From Lepidodermella squamata (Eukaryota > Animalia > Gastrotricha), in NCBI GenBank assembly GCA_047495785.1, contig JBLDXI010000021.1, forward strand, positions 1,550,001-1,614,000: DNA of 64,000 nt, read 5' to 3'. A model generated the notes under the pieces. The model had not been told where the DNA came from. It saw nothing but the letters and a program-made list of their open reading frames with translations, and searched no databases. Of this stretch, positions 7,084 to 40,988 are shown in pieces; position 1 is the first letter of the stretch, and each line of letters starts with the position of its first letter. Made by a program: the position numbers and the translations under genes.

Positions 7084-7404
7084 AATACCCATTTCAAGAA
7101 CCTTTAAGGCTAAGAGATAACTTTCAATTAATTGAAAAAAATGATTATAAAGTATTTAAAGACTTGAATGCGTTTATTTTTTTAGCGCTTCATGATCTAT
7201 TCAATTACCCGATGATCACTTTATCAGACGAAATGAGAAAAATCAGGTCACGTATATTTCTATACACAATGGAAGAATGTGCTTGTTTCTTAGAATTCTG
7301 CAATCGAAAGTTATGCTTACGTTCCATCATTCTACTATTTCGCTAAATTAAGCTGTAAATTTTACTTGTATTGCTATTTTTTAGAGCGTTAACATGATGG
7401 CTTT

Positions 7405-8102
7405 ATGGATGAGCTAAGTGCTAAACCTCTCAACCAGGCTCATATCAGAGCGCGGAAGGCGGCTGCTGCTCTTGCAAAAGGCGATCGCCGACTTGCAATA
7501 GAGCTTTATCGCGAGGCAAATCGTAAGTCGAGTCTCTAAAATCCGATCAACTCATCGATTTTTTTTAATTAGATAATTTGCGATTGGTTTTAAGCGAGTG
7601 TGAGAATGAAGATGTGATAGCGCGGAGTATTCAACTTCAAATAGATGAAAATGACTGGAAAATTCGCTCCCTTCAGTTGAAAGACCTTGCCGAGTTTAAG
7701 AAAGCACTAGGTGCCACTGAATCTGAAGAAGTAACCCCAGGCCGTACGATTCGTTTCGCTGTTGAAGATGAAGAAGATGATGGTGTAGTTTTAATTAGCC
7801 TAAGCAACGACCACCTTAATTTTTTCACCGATTCCCTGTGCCCGAACGCGACGATCATCCGACAGCAGAATCGCTTCTCGGACTTACCTTTCAGTAGCAC
7901 AAGTAATCTCAGGCCGACAGCGAATCTCCGGCAAGTCTCCAGCAGCAGCAGCAATAGTGGCAGGTTGCACCGGAGCCCGTCTTTACCGGAAAACGCGCAT
8001 ACTTTCGGGCGACGGCTTCCTAAATCCCCGGAGCAGATTGAAGAAGAAAAGCTGATGCTGAGAATGCATCATGAAATTTGGTCACGTCAGAACCTTCTCT
8101 GA
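7405..8102 (+). CDS. NRBF2: NRBF2-like (MIT domain) protein, copy A; exons 7405-7522 and 7573-8102
   Basis: MDELSAKPLNQAHIRARKAAAALAKGDRRLAIELYREAN...SIQLQ matches the NRBF2 MIT N-terminus (PLNLAH..R+A..L..G....AI...SLELQ). C-terminal GRRLPKSPEQIEEE resembles GSKAPKDDKTIIEE. Confidence 0.75.
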
Positions 8103-8500: not shown

Positions 8501-9127
8501 ATGGATGGTCTGAATTCAAGTCCCATCAATAAAGTAAGTCTATCGAATTTCCTTTTAAAAATACCGTAGATTGACGTTTTTCAGGCCCATTCTTTGGCTC
8601 GGAAAGCAGCGTCCTACGGTGAACGCGGAAATTACATTCAAGCTATTGAGCTGTACAAAGATGCGAATGAGAATTTAACGATTGTTTTCGACCAGTTAGC
8701 CGGAGAGCCCCTGCTTCAAAAATCTCTCGAACTTCAGCTCATTGAAAATGATTGGAAAATTCATGTTTTAACATTGAAGTCGCAAGCGACAGACTGCGAG
8801 TCGACCGAATCGTCGACGATAAGCATGGAAAAAATGAAAGCGGTGGAAAAAGACGACGACGACGTTGTAGTAGTAGATAATTTCAGCCAACTGTTGACTG
8901 GCAGCCAATTTTTGACCGATTCCCTCAATCCAAGCAGAACTTTGATGATGCAAAGGCAACGTTCTGCATCGACGCCGTCGCGAAACCCGCTACGACCGAC
9001 GGCTGATAATAAAAACCAATATCAAGGCAGCGGCAAGAAGTTGCCAAAAACCGAAGCAATTCGCGAGGAAGAAATTTTGGAGATGGTGAAAGTTCACCAG
9101 CAACTTGCCCGCGAATTCTATTCGTAG
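8501..9127 (+). CDS. NRBF2: NRBF2-like (MIT domain) protein, copy B; exons 8501-8533 and 8585-9127
   Basis: MDGLNSSPINK | AHSLARKAASYGERGNYIQAIELYKDANENL...KSLELQLIENDWKI...GKKLPKTEAIREEE; collinear with copy A. Confidence 0.78.
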
Positions 9128-31464: not shown

Positions 31465-34400
31465 ATGTTAGCCACAAAATTTGGACAAGTGCGTCGCGTT
31501 TCGAGTCTAGCTGCCCTTGTTAATGCCGGTGTCCGCTCCAAACCTAGCGCAGCTCCGAGCGTAGTTCGTTGTGTACATTTACGAAATGAAAACTTGATTC
31601 ATGTTGATCTTGCAGGGTCTTTTTGGTTTCGAGCAGCTTCGGGATCCAATAGGGTTTGAAACACTCACAGAAATGGCACTGACCAAAACAGAATTGTTGC
31701 GCCAGAAGGTCATAAATTTGCCGAAACAGACGCTAAAAGCAAATGTTGTCGAGCTATTTGACGAAATGTCGGATTCGCTATGCCAAGTCGCAGATATGGT
31801 GGGAACTTTTTAAGGCAAATAGAAATAATATGTTTTATACCAGCACTTTTAAGGCGGAATTCGTACGTTTGGCCCATCCCAATATCGATTACCGGCGAAG
31901 TGCGCAAAACGCTTGCGCGAAAATTGGCAGATATGTCGAAGAGCTGAACACTGACGCTGACCTGTATAAATCTTTCAAGCAAGAGCTTTCGAAGCTAAAA
32001 GACCCGACGGATTCGCGTGTGGGCCATCTCTTCCTCGTTGATTTCGAACAAAGCGGCATTCATTTGCCGGAAGATCGACGCGCTGCGTTCGTATCCTCCA
32101 GCGAGAAAATTCTCACGCTGGGAAGTGTTTTCCAACAAAATGTTGATATGCCAACTTTGGTCGATGTATCTCAGCTGCCTAAATCACTTGGATCGTCGTT
32201 GGCGCGCTTTTTCACGTATGACCCGAAGACCAACTCAATGGCCATCGATCGAGTTTTGGCCGATTCGCCTGATCGCAATATCCGAGAGGCGACTTATCGT
32301 TTGTTTTACGCGAAAAATGAGCAAGTTGACGATGTCATCAAACTTCTGATGAATGAACGCCATTCCTTGGCACAATTGTCGGGTTTTGACAATTTTGCCA
32401 CTCGCACCATCGCCCCGAATACAATGGCCGGAAATGTTGAGTTTGTTAAGGAGGTTGTTCAAAGAGTTTCAGAAGCGATTCGGCCAGCTGCTGATAAGGA
32501 GCTAGCTGAAATCGCAGCTGCGATGAAAAAAGACGGCATCGACCAACAAGTGGCTCCTTGGGATTTGATTCATTATGCGCGGAAAATTCGGGCGGATATG
32601 CTAGATGACGAAGCGGGCTACAAGCAGTTGAAAGATTTCTTCTCGTTGGGGTCAGTCTTGGCCGGCTTGGATAAGCTATTCGGCAATCTTTATGGGGTTC
32701 ATTTGAAGCTTGAAGTTCCTGCGCCAGGAGAGCTCTGGTCTGATGAAGTTTTCAAGTTGGTAAGTTCATGGTTACCCATTGAAAAAAGAAAGATGGAGGT
32801 AATGGTAGAAACGCCTGCCAATTCATTGAAGCAATAATTATTCGGGTCTGCAATTTGCACCCCGCGAGGGTGTATCCGATTTTACTCGCTTTACTCGCTC
32901 CGACTTCACTCGATTTTACCAAATTCAAACGGTAAAGAACTATGAATAAGCCGTGTTTGCTGGAAACGATGCAACACTGTTTCAAACGCAAGTAATTAAA
33001 CAAGGTGAAATGTGAGCTAGCCAGATTACATGAGCAATTTTGAGCAAGAGATTATTAGCAAAATTGTTCTGATGAATAGAGTTAATGGCTACAATTTTTC
33101 ATTCGTCACTGGGTTTCGGCGCAATTCATAATTAAAATCGCCCTCAATTATACTTTCATATATCACCGTGTTTTCAGTGAGCATGTCCACAATAGAGTCC
33201 ATAGCTCCGAGTCCACAATAGAACAGTTGACTAACCAAAAAAGAAAGCGACACCAAGTTGCTTCTGATTACAACTTTATTTATAACGGGCAACGTTTCGA
33301 TCCTTGCGTGGACGCTGACTCGGGTTTTCATTTCCTCATAGAACAGTTGGTCGTTTGTAGACAGCATCAAAGGATGAGCTTTCCATGTTTCGAAGCGATC
33401 GATATGACTAGCGTTTCAAGCAGACGTAGATTTGGGATTGATAATCGCCTTGCTTTGTGGAAAGACTTCTTCATAAGGATGGCAACCGGCAACACATCTA
33501 CAATGAGCATTTTATAGCTGAAGATTACTACTTTAAAGTACTTCATTCCAACAATTTTACTCTGAACGGCTGTGTTCTTGCGAACAACGTACATGTAGGC
33601 TTGCATTACTGATTATATTTGCGGCAGCCGCAAATCTTCGGCTCGCAGCCCGTCAGCGCTACTTAGGCGATCGCGGAGGGCTGCCCACAGGTGTTTGATA
33701 AGGCGTGCAGTACTTCAAAAGAGTCGTCAGCAAACGGCGAGGCGGCACATTCAAGTTGTCGAGGCTGTTCCTATTAAAAAGGAAGGACCATAAGATTTTA
33801 TCGCCCAGCACCATGAGGTCGTCAATCTGCTGAACGTGCTGAACGTGCTGAACGTGCTGAACGTGTTCGGTAGTAGAGTTGAAAGTCGAGATGCAGCTGC
33901 GGACGTCATTTCTGGTGACGGCTCGTCGATTGGCACTGGCGTTTCTTTAAAAATATCAGATTTATGCTTCTGACCTTGACAGCTCTTCCGATTGCAGAAC
34001 AACAGTTAACCATCGTCGCCGTAGACTTCCCGTTGGTGTAGAGAAATACCACCGCATTTGCAATAGGAGCATTTGATGGTCGATTGCTCTTCAATGCTGA
34101 CTGGCTTCCAGGCGGGAGGCTTTGCACATCTATGAAATTGAGTAGGACTTTAAGAGCCGGTAGCGGCAGCCTGTTGCAATCGATCGGCAACGTGCATTGA
34201 CCGTTGTCGTGGTCGCGAAACGGGTGATGGATTAGCTGATAGTAAGCAAATCGGCAAACGATTTGACCAGCTTGACCGTTGGTACCGTTGAAAGCCCGTG
34301 TGAACCATGAGATTACGCCCTCGGAGAAAAATCGTCTAAACCATCCCAGCGACCCGTGACGTGCAGCAGATTGCGGCAAATGACCGAGAAAATGCAGTAG

Positions 34401-35841
34401 CAGAGTTTCTAATCTACAAACTCCGAGAAGAATTGGAAACATCTGCTGAAATCGGCAAATTAAACGATGCAATCGTAGCGAACTAGTGTTAGGCAAATAG
34501 TCCTTCAGCAGCGTTGGCCCGACGGGTGTAATTTTCAGAAGTTTGAAATGCTTGGCCTTCTTTGATGCGCTAAAAAGGCTAATTCATGAAGCATTGATGC
34601 CTCGTCGAATATAATCAGATCGGTTTGACGCATCAGTGAGGCTAAGGCGCTCCGTGCCGAGCTGTTACAAGTAGTATGTTCATTGGCTCCTTCGATTGGA
34701 ATTTCGAAGACGGAATGAGCATTGCGCCCATTCTGCGTTTTTGCAGAAGATGAAGCTTTCGCGTCAAAAGTTGAGCCGAAGTTTTTACTTTTCTTTTTCT
34801 ATACACTTTGTGGTTACGTTTTGAGAACTCGATTCTCTGTCATTTTTAGGCAGTGGTGAATACTTCGACCGGAGAAACATTGGGCCATATATTTCTCGAC
34901 CTGTTTGAGCGGTCTCAAAAACCTGTCATGGAATGCCACTTCACGATTCGAGGTGGTCGATCACTGCCAAGCGGTAAATACCAGACGCCAGTAGTGGTGC
35001 TCATGCTTAATTTTAACGCTCCGGGTCGAGGCAGACCAGCGTTTTTGGGCCTAGCTCAAATCGAAAATTTGTTCCATGAATTTGGCCATGCTATGCATTC
35101 AGTTCTTGGAAGGACCAAGTACCAACACGTAACCGGTACCCGTTGCCCTACAGATTTCGCCGAGGTTCCATCTGTCTTGATGGAGTCTTTTTCACACGAT
35201 CCCCGAGTCGCAGCATTATACGCGACTCACTATGAAACTGGTAAAGCTGCGCCTTCTGAAGTATTGCACAAAGCCCTGCATGGGATGAGACATGCGTTTC
35301 GGTTGATTGATATGCAACAGCAATTAGCTTACACTGACTTCGATCTCGCCCTGCACTGTCCCCCGTCTGGTTCGCCACCGCCTGTCGACGACATTTCGGG
35401 GCTATATGCCAAAATTTGGCAGAAAAATTGCGGCGTTGAAATGCCAAAAAATGTGGTAAGTTTCGGAAATTGCTCCTCGTGTTGATAAGTAAATTCATGT
35501 TCTCTTTTCCTCAGGCCCAGTATCAACGGTTTGCACATTTAGTTGGCTACGGCTCGCGATACTACTCGGTTAGTTGGCAGAATTTTTGTTCAATTTTGTG
35601 TATTTATTTTTGTGTGTTTCAGTATCTTCTGAGCCGAGCTGTAGCTGGGTTATTATGGCGGCACATGTTTCAAGATGATCCATTGTGTCTAATGACACCA
35701 TCGGGTAGTCAGCTTCGAAAACGAATGCTGGAACACGGCGGCATGGTCGAGCCGCGAAAACTGGTCGAACAAACACTAGGAATTCCTGCGTTAACCGCTA
35801 AAGACGTTGCGAATGCTGTGGTTGAACAGACTATTCAATGA
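31465..35841 (+). CDS. MIPEP: Mitochondrial intermediate peptidase (M3 family); 2.09-kb intron 32760-34849
   Basis: [97 protein letters not shown]. Confidence 0.96.
32835..34760 (-). mobile_element. Decayed rolling-circle transposon (Helitron/Helentron-like) relic, antisense within the MIPEP intron
   Basis: Minus strand 34732-34568 reads NGRNAHSVFEIPIEGANEHTTCNSSARSALASLMRQTDLIIFDEASMLH (Helitron Pif1 helicase motifs Ib-II), then HFKLLKIT. Further on SIIEGDFN (33131-33154) resembles an APE endonuclease motif. GC-rich hairpin near 32857-32873. Confidence 0.65.
33828..33863. repeat. Tandem 9-mer repeat (TGCTGAACG) x4
   Basis: Four exact consecutive copies inside the intronic element. Confidence 0.9.
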
Positions 35842-35993: not shown

Positions 35994-38074
35994 TCACTCA
36001 AGGTGCAAAATTTTGACCAAATCGCGATCTCCTTTATTTGCCAAGCAGTCTTTGACGTACATGTAGCGCTCTCGGTCCGAGTTGAAATTCCGGAAGCGAG
36101 TCAGGTTGATGGGTACAATAGATATTGCATCATCGCTACCACACAAAAACCGCCGTAACAGGAAAAATCGCAGTCGACAGGTCCACACCAAATCAAAGCG
36201 GTTCTGATAGAAATCGGACGCGCCAATCGGCACAATGAAGTGTTTACGCGTTCCTTCAACGGCCGGTATGTACAATCGAAGAACCAAATCATGATCACCT
36301 ACTTGAGCACCATTCAACTTGACCACAGATAGCAATTGAGGAAGAATTTCCAACTTTTCAGACAGATTATCAAAGCTGGTTTCATTAGTCACAACCGCGA
36401 TCATTTCTTCGATCTGGTCAAAGCACGTCGGAAAATCGGCCGGGACAAGTGGAATCTCAATTTCACAGCAGCTTTTAAGGTAATATAACATCAATTTCGA
36501 TTTTACATCGAGTAGTTTCCATTCCGTTGAAAACTCGCAGCTTTGAATCAATTCCTTCAAAGCCTTCTTATCTTCGGTCAAATGGGTAATTGAGGCTTCC
36601 AAAAACTCAGCAATGCCAACTTCATCGAGCAGCGAAGCAGAACCCACTATGTCAATAAGCGACTTGAACAGCTCAGGAACGGCAAAATTGAGTTTCACCA
36701 CGAGAAAGACGAAGGCCTTGCACTCTTCTATACTAGAGTCCAAGCTACGCCGAATATTTTCCGAAAGTTTTTTGAGCAAAATTAGCTCGTTGAGCCGTTG
36801 AAACCTGCGAGAAAAAATGAATGTTCCATTAAATGATTTCTTCTAATGAAAAACATTACTTCAAACACATATTGCTGATTTCAAGAGCGTCCAATGGCGT
36901 AAAACTATCTGCAGCTTTTTCAAGGGCAGAAAAGCATTTGTCTAGGTAGCCGGGAGTGATCCAGTCTTTGCTCAGCAATCCGACAAATTTAATTAGACTT
37001 CTGCCGGAAATCGAGCCGCTCTCAATCGCTTTCATGGCCATATCATTCAGCACGCGATTTCGAGTAATTGGCGACAGATGCTCGCCGAAATGCTGCAACA
37101 TGAGCGTCAAATTCAATTCGTCGAAAAACACGTTTTCAACGCAGAGATCGGCTGCAAATTGATCGAAGTCCTCATCGGCTCGTTTTTGGAGAAACAATCG
37201 CAGCCCGGCGTTCAAAGCCGTTGGAAGGCGAAGTGAGCTGAACTTTGCTATACATCGGGCGAGAGTCACTGCATCAGCCACTGTTAGATCGTTTATGGAA
37301 TTTTTCAACAAATTGAGAAAAATGTATATTATAGGCGTTTTGAAGGGAACTCCCAGGTCCAAAAGGCGAATAACATTCGCTATGGAAGCATTAGAAGGAT
37401 ATGACCGGCTTTTCTTGTATAAAAGGTTGCACAGCACAAGAAATCTTAAAAGGCACACTGAAATAGCGATGAATATTATTAGATTAATTTAACTTGCCTT
37501 GGATCGTCCATAATTAATGCAGGTTTGACTGTAATTCCTTTTTCGCTATCCTGAGTAGAGCTCAAGACTTTATTCCTAATATTGGCGTGGAGATATCCCA
37601 AGGCATTATAGCAATTCAGGTTATCCATTCTAGTAGCGTTTCGATGCACCAAATCCAATATCTAAACCAATTATTCAATGATGGAAAACAAAGCAGGGTG
37701 GCATCCCAAACCTTTGAGGAATCATTCGCTATAATTTCCAACTCCTTGTTTATTTCGTCAGCAACGATGAAACGAGTTCCGTATCGGCTAGATTTTGACA
37801 ACGTGTCTTTGGGGTCTCGAATAAGAGGCGAATTCCAAGTATCAACAGCCTCAACACCAACCGGAGTCGACTTCTCCGGGATTTTTATGAAACGAGAAGG
37901 TTCTGCAGAAGGAAGTCTTGAAAACTCCGATTTAGTTACTTCAGCATCCGTCTTCTTCGCAGTCTTCTCTACACTTTTTGCTGGACGTTTTACAATCCCT
38001 GAAGAAGAACCGCGAACTGTTCTGATAACTTCTCGGTAATATTTCGAGAGATTTTGACGAATCTGTCGATGCAT
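35994..38074 (-). CDS. FAST kinase domain-containing (FASTKD-family) mitochondrial RNA-binding protein, multi-exon; includes GC-AG intron 37445-37497
   Basis: Arg-rich presequence-like start MHRQIRQNLSKYYREVIRTVR; MDDPRFLVLCNLLYKKSR...LLDLGVP...LLKNSINDL resembles FASTKD helical regions; C-terminal LRFFLLRRFL...IVPINLTRFRNF..DRERYMYVKDCL is RAP-domain-like. Paralog not assignable. Confidence 0.65.
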
Positions 38075-38495
38075 TATAGTGTTTCGGGATTCGCTTGCGC
38101 TTCGGGCTGTTGAGCGGCTTGCTGTTGTTGAGCTGTTTCAGCGGCTTTGGCGAGACGTTCGGTCTGTGTCTCCCAAAATACTGTCATCAACCGACGAGTT
38201 GTGTTTATGAACTTCCCGCAACACCGATCTACGCAATCCTCCTATACAAAATGTAATTTCTCATTTCTCATATAGATGCGGGCTTGCTCAAACCTCTTGC
38301 GTGGTCAAGGCGCGTTGGTTAAAGTCGGATGCACAAATACGAAAGCAAGTCTCTGCTATTCGGTTGTATTGTAAGAAGAAGTCGCGAATCTAAAAACCGC
38401 TTGATAAAACTTGAAAATACAATGAAGTTAAAACCCACTCCTCGAAGCTCTTCCGTAGAATATTGAGTTTTCGCCCCTTTATCAAAAAAAGCCAT
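38074..38495 (-). CDS. TIMM10B: Small Tim chaperone Tim10B/Tim9b, 106 aa; exons 38439-38495, 38294-38389, 38074-38241 (not resolved in the ORF track)
   Basis: Spliced product MAFFDKGAKTQYSTEELRG|IRDFFLQYNRIAETCFRICASDFNQRALTTQE|EDCVDRCCGKFINTTRRLMTVFW... has twin CX3C and the LRDF..YNR..E.CF..C signature; two canonical phase-0 introns of 49 and 52 nt. Confidence 0.9.
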
Positions 38496-38597
38496 GTAAA
38501 AATCTAGAAACAAAGTCAGGTATTTATTCGCTAAAATAAACATATGCGAAAGACGAGTGACAGCAGATTCGATCTGCCGGTTATTAATAACCATTCC

Positions 38598-39305
38598 TCA
38601 CCGCAACTCATGAATAACTATTGTTATAAGTACGGTATTAAAAAATACAAATGGGAGCATACGAAGAAGTCTTTGGGTGGGCGGCACGTAATTCCTGTTT
38701 TCTTCTCGAATCATGTTACGTATCGCCTCTCTGCGCTGTTGTTCATTGGCACGCCGTTGCTCAGCCTCGCCGTAGTGCGCCCGATAGTGTTCGTCAAAGT
38801 TATAATGCTTCCACGCGCCTTGATGAGGCGACTCCGCTCGCGCTTTGTAAGGACCATGGGAATTTTGGCGCATTCTGCGCCACATTTCTTCGTCATTATA
38901 TGGGGACTGTCGGGGAGATTGATAATTATGCTGCTGGGGATGGTGAGTGGAAGAGGTGCTTCGGTCTGATGCGGAAAATCGTCGGTCATAATGCCTCCGC
39001 TTGTCCGGATTTCGCAAGGTTTCATATGCTTCGGATATTTCTCTGAATTGGGATGCGGCGTCCGGATTAGAAGAAACATCTGGGTGATGCTCTTTGGTTT
39101 TTCTGGCATGTTAATGACTATAGCAGATAATATAATTTAGCAGAGACTACCTGAAGTAAGCTGCCTTTATCTCAGCATGAGTTGCCTTTGGCGATACGTC
39201 TAATACGTCGTAAAAGTTTCTGCTAGTGCTATAGCGCACTAAGCCACTGAAAAATAATGTGACTTGTTGCAGATGAATACTCTTTTGACTTGAAACGCAA
39301 AACAT
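38598..39305 (-). CDS. DNAJC30: Mitochondrial J-domain protein DNAJC30-like; 2 exons
   Basis: NFYDVLDVSPKATHAEIKAAYF, HHPD, FREISEAYETL..PDKRRHYD, DNAJC30-type YNFDEHYRAHYGE, C-terminal hydrophobic segment. Confidence 0.82.
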
Positions 39306-39676
39306 CGGATAGATAGCAGTAAAGCCACCTAATAAAAATCAAACTACATCAGCAAACGTGTTGCCCTTTCGAACACATTAGATAATAGATAAGGCGATTA
39401 AAAATAATAATAATTTTCATTTAGCCAAGGCCAAATTCGCAAGGACTGGCCATTTTTCCAATATAAATTTCTTGCACGAATGAGCAAAAAGATTGAGCGA
39501 TGTAAGACTAGTGATTGAGACAGGTAGTAGATTCAATAATTCGGCTGTTCCAACTTCCAACAGCTAAGCTAACGCCCCTAAGACAAAGTGAATGATGAGG
39601 AACAACCGTAATTGTTAATTTGTTACTAATATGATGTCGAGTAGTAGGGAGAAAAATTAATTTCAACTAATCAATT

Positions 39677-40226: not shown

Positions 40227-40988
40227 GCCTAGTTGGTCTTGCAGATCCCAACAAATAGAGGTTGTGCTATGAGATGAGTGTTCGTGCAGATATCTGCTGT
40301 TCTGTGGCCTTCTGCCTTCTTTCTTGAATGCGCTCTCAGTCTCCAGTAATGGTTATTTCAATGATGACCGAAGCCCGGGAACCGGGAATAGTCAGAACCG
40401 TGCTCAATCAGAATTTACAGTTGCCATAGCTGAAATATTACTATAGATCGTTCAAGACGCGGAAGAACTCCCACTTTAAGAAAACACCTACAATAAACCG
40501 AGTACGGTAAGTATAAGAATAATGGAAAAATACAGTCAGCCAACCGCACTCGACTCTACCGTAATCAGAAAAAATGCCAAAGTGCAAGTTCTTCCGCGAT
40601 GTGAACAAGATGACTAGAGATATTTGTTGCGCAACTGCGACGCGCATAATATAATCAATCATCTGAACTACGTTGCTCGTTTTAGAGGACTAGATAGGTT
40701 CCGGCCTTGAATTCTGGAAAACCGAGTTGGCATTACCGCATTCTCTTACCTGCAGTGAGATTTATTGTCATGAGCACTAATTCTGCTACTGCTAAATTTG
40801 TTTATCATAAATCTTGACTGGCGTGGGCTGAATTTTTCTCGCTTTTCTCTGATGCATGCTTTAAAAGCACTCAGATGCAGGCAATTTCGTTCCTTGATCT
40901 TTCTTTTTGATCTTGATCTTGCTTCATATCAAATTTGACTGTACTTGTTCCAAAATGATATAGGCCTGTAATAACATAGAAAAGGAAG

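What the first reader, a model, noticed from the sequence alone, without database searches (positions are those of the whole stretch)
38060..38245. TIMM10B stop codon overlaps the start of a FASTK-family gene (TAATG), with a TURBS-like UGGGA upstream: candidate cellular termination-reinitiation bicistron
Seen: on the minus strand the spliced TIMM10B ORF ends ...GAA ACA CTA TAA (38076-38074). The last A of that stop is the A of the ATG opening the FASTKD-like ORF, whose N-terminus looks like a mitochondrial presequence and has no other Met for well over 100 codons. There is no intergenic base for a promoter, poly(A) site or splice acceptor. About 95 nt upstream lies UGGGA (38175-38171), and AGUAUUUUGGGA (38182-38171) can pair 11/12 with UCCCGAAACACU (38089-38078) right beside the junction. 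Known: UAAUG stop-start plus a UGGGA motif complementary to 18S rRNA helix 26 defines TURBS-driven reinitiation in influenza B BM2 and caliciviruses. From memory (to verify), small Tim genes also occur in polycistronic mRNAs in Drosophila. Inference: one mRNA makes two mitochondrial proteins by translational coupling. Caveat: a 5-mer within 100 nt can be chance, and the spacing is somewhat longer than in viral TURBS.
Basis: partly seen in the sequence, partly recalled or inferred. Interest (0 to 1): 0.88.

Follow-up and report, generated by a model that had tools for sequence, protein, structure and literature searches.

The report
Tim10B-led two-protein mRNA, no TURBS

Summary
The TAATG overlap is real. 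One spliced RNA contig runs from TIMM10B exon 2 through the junction into exon 3 of the 640-aa second ORF. That fits a bicistronic mRNA but does not prove it.

The TURBS reading fails its tests. UGGGA is forced by a Trp-Glu codon pair, is preceded by U (always a purine in viral TURBS), lies 99 nt from the stop, and is base-paired in 5 of 5 folds. About 33% of 300 random 120-nt windows hold an equally good 11/12 stem.

Leaky scanning fits better: U at -3 of the TIMM10B start, no out-of-frame AUG in ORF1, A at -3 of the ORF2 start. Each sign is modest. The organism probably trans-splices, so an ORF2-only mRNA made at an internal acceptor is a serious rival.

FASTK identity could not be confirmed. 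FlyBase lists Tim9b as dicistronic-only and at least five 1-nt overlaps. The scan has noted similar bicistrons in other genomes, but not this pair. Verdict: new member of a known kind.

The parts
38439..38495 (-). TIMM10B (Tim9b) exon 1 from the ATG at 38495; U at -3, G at +4
   Evidence: Sequence and in-frame splice; not covered by laid RNA contigs
38294..38389 (-). TIMM10B exon 2
   Evidence: Pfam zf-Tim10_DDP E 9.1e-05, at the curated cut-off; RNA contig from 38361 on
38074..38241 (-). TIMM10B exon 3, ending in TAA; the same exon continues as ORF2 exon 1
   Evidence: Pfam zf-Tim10_DDP E 0.005; only small-Tim hit in PDB is human Tim10B, E 0.59; RNA joint 38240/38293
38072..38076 (-). TAATG stop-start overlap, 1 nt; ORF2 start context ATA-ATG-C
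   Evidence: context
38185..38187 (-). Only internal AUG of TIMM10B (Met70, in frame, U at -3); would open a 37-codon uORF on an mRNA starting at exon 3
38171..38175 (-). UGGGA, equal to the Trp-Glu codons of TIMM10B; judged not a TURBS motif 1
38078..38089 (-). 3' arm of the proposed stem (pairs with 38182-38171); judged chance-level
38504..38521 (-). T-rich splice-acceptor-like site 8 nt before the TIMM10B ATG; likely trans-splice or 5' UTR acceptor (inferred)
37712..38074 (-). ORF2 exon 1, 121 codons, predicted mitochondrial presequence
   Evidence: RNA joint 37661/37712
37498..37661 (-). ORF2 exon 2, followed by a GC-AG intron
36860..37444 (-). ORF2 exon 3
35994..36804 (-). ORF2 exon 4: helical region then an alpha/beta C-terminus; FASTK/RAP-like by eye only
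   Evidence: One homologue, P0121, 39% identity over residues 5-266, E 1.1e-43; low-confidence models
38598..39305 (-). Upstream DnaJ-domain gene with presequence-like N-terminus; apparent stop 103 nt before the TIMM10B ATG; possible operon partner (inferred)
   Evidence: Pfam DnaJ; RNA joint 39102/39151
38523..38528 (-). AATAAA about 20 nt before the TIMM10B acceptor; possible poly(A) signal of the DnaJ gene

Best explanation
TIMM10B and a 640-codon second gene overlap by one base and are likely carried on one spliced mRNA, on which some scanning ribosomes probably slip past the TIMM10B start codon and begin at the second gene (leaky scanning). Shown: the overlap, the exon structure, one spliced contig across the junction, the start contexts, and the lack of out-of-frame AUGs in ORF1. 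Inferred: the mRNA begins with a spliced leader or short 5' exon joined 8 nt before the TIMM10B AUG; most ribosomes make Tim10B; the rest cross 318 nt holding a single in-frame AUG with U at -3 and start at the ATA-AUG context of ORF2. On this reading the TAA is simply part of a start context this genome also uses for ordinary genes, and UGGGA plays no part. ORF2 is predicted to be a mitochondrial matrix protein, possibly a very divergent FASTK-type RNA-binding protein.
For: Run X1 contig of 954 nt joins TIMM10B exon 2 (from 38361), exon 3, the junction and ORF2 exons 1-3 through three introns. ORF2 has no acceptor-like site of its own. Its Met1 is the likely start: the next Met is at 133, and 132 open codons would arise by chance with p about 0.0005. 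ORF1 has 0 out-of-frame and 1 in-frame internal AUG; 6 of 320 overlapping and 1 of 36 non-overlapping 315-nt coding windows have one or none, mean 5.6. The -3 base is U at the TIMM10B start and at Met70, A at ORF2; 9 of 15 other hand-picked starts have a purine. RPL23A and GST share ORF2's ATA-ATG, and 2 of the 15 starts are themselves TAATG. Precedent: leaky scanning shown for green algal bicistrons (PMC11892635 passages) and Drosophila sloth1/sloth2 with a 5-nt gap (PMC9681215 passages); fly Tim9b is dicistronic-only.
Against: A contig across two genes does not show a single transcript, it comes from one run, and TIMM10B exon 1 is not covered. The AUG shortage comes largely from amino-acid content: 49% of 5000 synonymous recodings also have no out-of-frame AUG. 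U at -3 is not rare here (3 of 15 starts, including snRNP200), the TIMM10B start has G at +4, and those 15 starts were picked by eye. FlyBase curators note most fly dicistronic pairs do not meet scanning requirements (PMC4528330 passage). Conservation of the junction could not be examined. No translation data.
Confidence: 0.45

Rival explanations
1. ORF2 is made from its own mRNA. A spliced leader is added at an internal TIMM10B acceptor (38390 or 38242), or an internal promoter or alternative splice removes the TIMM10B start. Only the weak Met70 uORF then precedes ORF2.
For: 10 of 15 hand-picked starts have an acceptor-like site within 30 nt, against 10.7% of 2157 ATGs (pattern written after seeing the sequences). 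The DNALI1 RNA contig carries 24 foreign letters ending at an AG 25 nt before its ATG, absent from the window at up to 3 mismatches. Fly CG12788 has a monocistronic form by a splice that disrupts Tim9b. Internal trans-splice sites exist in flatworms (PMC12582326 passages).
Against: The contig through exon 3 continues into exon 2 by cis-splicing. Internal trans-splicing is reported as mostly low-level in flatworms. The leader is seen on one gene only and could be a distant 5' exon.
Confidence: 0.25
2. Termination-reinitiation without a TURBS: ribosomes finishing Tim10B stay on the mRNA and restart at the overlapping AUG, coupling the two proteins.
For: Exact UAAUG geometry, which also serves SART1 and a hypovirus without motif 1 (PMC5972666 passages). 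Leaky scanning alone does not require zero spacing.
Against: Reinitiation after long ORFs is described as rare without helper elements. TG follows TAA 6.1% of the time and TAATG occurs at ordinary starts here. At least five fly loci have 1-nt overlaps, with no mechanism given in the rows seen. No notable structure in exon 3 (z -0.80).
Confidence: 0.2
3. A cellular TURBS: UGGGA pairs with 18S helix 26 and holds the 40S subunit for restart.
For: UGGGA and UAAUG are both present. Some viral TURBS have an alternative fold that hides motif 1. Trp-Glu is not kept in human Tim10B (Val-Gln at the aligned positions), so the protein does not obviously need it.
Against: U precedes UGGGA, whereas viral examples always have a purine; viral P1 ends 12-23 nt before the AUG, here 3 nt (PMC11921876 section 10). 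Only three 4-bp helices meet the viral spacing. UGGGA is paired in 5 of 5 folds, also without the 3' arm, and less open than the mRNA median in 3 of 3 local folds. A viral UAAUG-type junction with UGGGA over 100 nt upstream was inactive. The motif is present in 5000 of 5000 synonymous recodings.
Confidence: 0.05

Closest known systems
Drosophila Tim9b (CG17767)-CG12788 dicistronic locus (PMC2276209 passages; PMC4528330 File S1 rows)
   Same: The same small Tim gene family as first cistron, with an unrelated larger gene behind it.
   Different: Fly spacing is 162 nt; here -1 nt. The partner shows no sign of being the same gene (not compared directly). The fly has a documented monocistronic form of the second gene.
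Drosophila 1-nt-overlap dicistronic loci, e.g. CG33786/CG33785 (File S1 rows; 108-aa conserved uORF)
   Same: 1-nt stop-start overlap between two cellular genes, first ORF of about 100 aa, annotated as dicistronic only.
   Different: Different genes; their sequences and mechanism were not seen. A 4-nt overlap pair, CG33649/DNApol-gamma35, is also listed.
Leaky-scanning bicistrons: Drosophila sloth1/sloth2 (PMC9681215) and green algal loci (PMC11892635)
   Same: Short first ORF, weaker first start, stronger second start, few AUGs before ORF2, mitochondrial products in several cases.
   Different: Those were tested with reporters; sloth ORFs are paralogues 5 nt apart. Here the ORFs overlap and the mRNA is probably trans-spliced.
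Viral TURBS of caliciviruses and influenza B (PMC11921876, PMC5972666, PMC10275272)
   Same: UAAUG overlap and a UGGGA somewhere upstream.
   Different: No purine before UGGGA, no P1 stem at the viral spacing, motif predicted paired, 99 nt from the stop, and explained by coding.
FASTK family (PMC5737537, PMC11879112 passages)
   Same: Predicted N-terminal presequence, long helical body, alpha/beta C-terminus, similar length.
   Different: No FAST_1, FAST_2 or RAP match was obtained; membership is unshown.

Membership tests
TURBS (viral reinitiation element) | Stop and start codons overlapping or very close | tested here: met
   TAATG at 38076-38072
TURBS (viral reinitiation element) | UGGGA core upstream of the stop | tested here: met
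   38175-38171, but chance-level (5.6% per 100 nt) and fixed by Trp-Glu
TURBS (viral reinitiation element) | Purine directly before UGGGA, giving at least 6 nt of rRNA pairing | tested here: not met
   Preceding base is U; rule from PMC11921876 section 10
TURBS (viral reinitiation element) | P1 stem (motifs 2/2*) flanking the motif and ending 12-23 nt before the AUG | tested here: not met
   Proposed arm ends 3 nt before the AUG; only three 4-bp helices meet the spacing
TURBS (viral reinitiation element) | Motif 1 exposed in a loop | tested here: not met
   Per-base unpaired probability at most 0.06 in 5 of 5 folds; whole 5-mer unpaired 0.02-0.07. Prediction only; viral elements can have a hidden conformer
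TURBS (viral reinitiation element) | Complementarity to this species' 18S helix 26 | not testable with these tools
   No rRNA gene in the window and no genome held
TURBS (viral reinitiation element) | ORF2 output depends on the motif and on stop position | not testable with these tools
   Needs reporters
Leaky-scanning bicistron | Both ORFs on one mature mRNA | tested here: inconclusive
   One spliced contig bridges the junction, exon 1 not covered; contigs cannot show single molecules
Leaky-scanning bicistron | Weaker start context at ORF1 than ORF2 | tested here: inconclusive
   -3 U/+4 G against -3 A/+4 C; purine at -3 in 9 of 15 hand-picked starts, U in 3 of 15
Leaky-scanning bicistron | Few AUGs before ORF2 | tested here: met
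   One internal, in frame; 1 of 36 non-overlapping coding windows as low. Largely due to amino-acid content
Leaky-scanning bicistron | ORF2 output falls when the ORF1 start is strengthened | not testable with these tools
   Needs reporters
Small Tim family (TIMM10B) | Twin CX3C Tim10/DDP domain | tested here: met
   CFRIC and CVDRC in the spliced product; Pfam PF02953 on both exons. Subtype rests on a weak hit to human Tim10B, E 0.59
FASTK family | N-terminal mitochondrial targeting sequence | tested here: inconclusive
   Charge and amphipathicity fit; no dedicated predictor or localisation data
FASTK family | [quoted passage not shown] | tested here: inconclusive
   Exons and the one homologue were scanned separately without a match; the lineage is long-branched and models had pLDDT 42

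The most novel reading that the evidence does not exclude
The junction is a cellular termination-reinitiation site helped by an upstream RNA element, a TURBS variant whose UGGGA is hidden until the terminating ribosome melts the stem, sitting in a trans-spliced three-gene mitochondrial operon (DnaJ, TIMM10B, ORF2). It would be the first structured reinitiation signal in an animal housekeeping mRNA that I know of.
Probability: 0.06. Interest if true: 0.85.

Novelty: new member of a known kind. Interest (0 to 1): 0.36.

Why it matters
If the bicistron is real, Tim10B is the first cistron in two distant animal lineages with apparently different partners, which suggests this small essential gene is predisposed to carry passengers. 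It would also put a bicistronic mRNA inside a genome that probably resolves gene clusters by trans-splicing. The zero-gap junction is a clean natural test of leaky scanning against reinitiation. Gene callers would miss or fuse one of the two genes. A cellular TURBS would be a major result (PMC10275272 treats it as an open possibility), but the evidence here is against it.

Tried and rejected
TURBS: rejected on the tests listed.

FASTK identity, all without result: Pfam on ORF2 exons and pieces and on P0121; PDB sequence search on exons 3 and 4 and on the two-sequence profile; word-indexed homologue search among longer proteins, 0 of 3114 candidates; single-sequence models at pLDDT 42 with Foldseek and VIA-align (generic helical matches; best Z 5.0 for the C-terminal model). 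The Atlas gave no answer. None of this excludes FASTK. The whole spliced protein was never searched or folded.

Relatives with the junction: TIMM10B exon 3 among longer proteins, 0 of 130 candidates; metagenome scan, 0 of 595 stretches; DNALI1-based scan, one 1,245-nt contig L001, too short to reach the junction and not read; prokaryote genomes, 0 of 194. No own genome is held.

RNA: no run is on record as RNA; X1 is treated as RNA because its contigs skip introns. Contig depth was not used. Lack of cover on TIMM10B exon 1 and lack of a loose end at exon 3 were not taken as evidence. The loose end at 42063 matches the window's own opposite strand, so it is not a leader. Rfam found nothing in the window or at the locus.

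Fusion or readthrough: rejected, since the frames differ and the products are predicted for different mitochondrial compartments.

A C. elegans tin-9.2/exos-4.1 dicistronic arrangement is recalled only; searches and two look-ups did not confirm it. Searches for a printed TIMM10B-FASTK bicistron found none; subscription journals are not covered. PMC4528329 was opened by mistake and not used. Supplement file 1 of PMC4528330 could not be searched.

Full report
Setting. The window is from an animal with short introns (48-59 nt at the RNA-confirmed joints). Its DNALI1 protein has best named hits at 75-78% among molluscs, annelids and other invertebrates, and one unnamed relative at 89%. A quick tree puts the pair on a long branch, weakly (82) beside parasitic flatworms; the careful search did not finish, so the clade is open. 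No whole genome is held.

Observation. All coordinates are right. On the minus strand a DnaJ gene, TIMM10B and a second ORF follow each other; a peptidase M3 gene converges from the other side. TIMM10B is 106 aa in three exons with twin CX3C motifs and matches Pfam Tim10/DDP on both larger exons. Its TAA shares the last A with the ATG of a 640-aa ORF in four exons. The next Met is at 133, and a frame open that long by chance has p about 0.0005. The first 30 residues look like a mitochondrial presequence. ORF2 is a real gene: a search of 1.84 billion representatives returned one homologue, P0121, 39% identical over the last exon. P0121 and the DNALI1 relative both list a longest contig of 39,798 nt, which hints at kept synteny; the DNA could not be read.

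Transcript. Two runs hold the locus. X1 is not on record as RNA, but its contigs skip 8 listed introns, none skipped in X2. One 954-nt contig starts in TIMM10B exon 2 at 38361, splices to exon 3, crosses the TAATG and splices twice more in ORF2. This fits one mRNA but does not prove it: overlapping mRNAs would assemble the same way, and exon 1 is not covered. Four variants in TIMM10B exon 3 are 3 synonymous and 1 Gln-Glu; seven in ORF2 are 4 synonymous and 3 conservative; none of the listed variants touches the overlap (16 further variants were not shown).

TURBS test. Sherlock et al. (PMC11921876; passages and section 10 read) state that UGGGA is always preceded by a purine and that P1 ends 12-23 nt before the AUG, and report that a viral junction with UGGGA more than 100 nt upstream was inactive. 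A review (PMC5972666, passages) says motif 1 is exposed in a loop, with hidden conformers proposed for some viruses. Here the preceding base is U, the motif starts 99 nt before the stop, and the proposed 3' arm ends 3 nt before the AUG. Only three 4-bp helices meet the viral spacing. UGGGA is paired in 5 of 5 folds, including two without the 3' arm; in the longest fold the proposed stem does not form at all. The stem is ordinary: 33% of 300 random 120-nt windows hold an 11/12 helix, and 15 of 76 TGGGA sites have such a partner; z is -0.80. The motif is the codon pair Trp-Glu and appears in 5000 of 5000 synonymous recodings. The species' 18S was not available.

Leaky scanning. Between the two starts there is one AUG, in frame, with U at -3. 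Coding windows of that size average 5.6; 6 of 320 overlapping and 1 of 36 non-overlapping windows have one or none. However, 49% of synonymous recodings also lack out-of-frame AUGs, so amino-acid content explains much of it. The TIMM10B start has U at -3 and G at +4; ORF2 has A at -3. Of 15 other starts picked by eye, 9 have a purine and 3 have U at -3. RPL23A and GST share ORF2's ATA-ATG, and two of the 15 starts are themselves TAATG. So the overlap may be no more than a good start context whose TAA also serves as the stop. TURBS reinitiation is reported not to need start context (PMC10275272 passage). These signs match the bicistrons tested in green algae (PMC11892635, passages) and fly sloth1/sloth2 (PMC9681215, passages), but each is modest.

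Trans-splicing. Ten of the 15 starts have a T-rich acceptor within 30 nt, against 10.7% of all 2157 ATGs; the pattern was written after seeing the data. TIMM10B has one 8 nt before its ATG and ORF2 has none. The DNALI1 contig carries 24 foreign letters ending at an AG 25 nt before its ATG that are not in the window. This is one gene in one run, but it suggests a spliced leader. DnaJ ends 103 nt before TIMM10B with AATAAA just ahead of the acceptor, as in an operon. If leaders are also added at TIMM10B's internal acceptors, as reported at low level in flatworms (PMC12582326, passages), ORF2 would get its own mRNA with only a 37-codon uORF ahead. Contigs cannot exclude this.

Comparison with what is known. 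FlyBase lists 159 dicistronic pairs, with spacings from -34 to 319 nt among exclusively polycistronic loci (PMC4528330, passages). Its File S1 gives Tim9b as dicistronic-only, 162 nt before CG12788, which also has a monocistronic splice form. It lists at least five loci with a 1-nt overlap (13 of 14 matching places seen); one, CG33786/CG33785, has a conserved 108-aa first ORF (PMC2276209, passages). Neither a small Tim first cistron nor a 1-nt overlap between animal genes is new. Searches found no report of this pair. [quoted passage not shown] Earlier scan notes list similar candidate bicistrons in other genomes and none for this locus or protein.

Verdict. A likely bicistronic TIMM10B-ORF2 unit. 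Leaky scanning 0.45, ORF2-only mRNA 0.25, reinitiation without TURBS 0.20, TURBS 0.05, other 0.05. New member of a known kind; interest 0.36.

Noticed in passing
window 40962-40963 (+), DNALI1 5' end: The X1 contig carries 24 foreign letters ending at an AG acceptor 25 nt before the ATG, absent from the window: candidate spliced leader of this lineage, seen on one gene only.
   Followed up: partly
whole window: 10 of 15 hand-picked gene starts have a T-rich acceptor within 30 nt, against 10.7% of all ATGs: widespread trans-splicing or 5' UTR introns.
   Followed up: partly
window 38596-38604 (-): The apparent DnaJ stop lies inside a donor-like GTGAG. Splicing to the 38531 acceptor adds one residue; splicing to 38504 would end DnaJ 14 nt inside TIMM10B, a second stop-start overlap. 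No RNA evidence either way.
   Followed up: partly
window 38626 (-): An X1 DnaJ contig has 30 letters beyond 38626 that are neither laid nor listed as a loose end. Unexplained.
   Followed up: no
window 37445-37497 (-): ORF2 intron 2 is a GC-AG intron, supported by an RNA joint.
   Followed up: yes
window 32760-34849: The peptidase M3 (MIPEP-like) gene is interrupted by about 2 kb holding a short piece that resembles a PIF1/Helitron helicase motif (34535-34798; resemblance recalled). X2 shows a loose end at 34679.
   Followed up: no
window 35994-39305 (-) and 31465-35841 (+): Four neighbouring genes with predicted mitochondrial products (DnaJ, TIMM10B, ORF2, MIPEP-like); LETM1 lies at 13.2-15.4 kb.
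   Followed up: no
window 7386-7407 (+): Two ATGs in tandem just before the start of the first MIT-domain gene open a short out-of-frame uORF overlapping it; a second MIT-like copy follows at 8570-9124.
   Followed up: no
window 39395-39652: X1 contigs from diverged copies match pieces upstream of DnaJ, suggesting a small repeated element; no Rfam match.
   Followed up: partly
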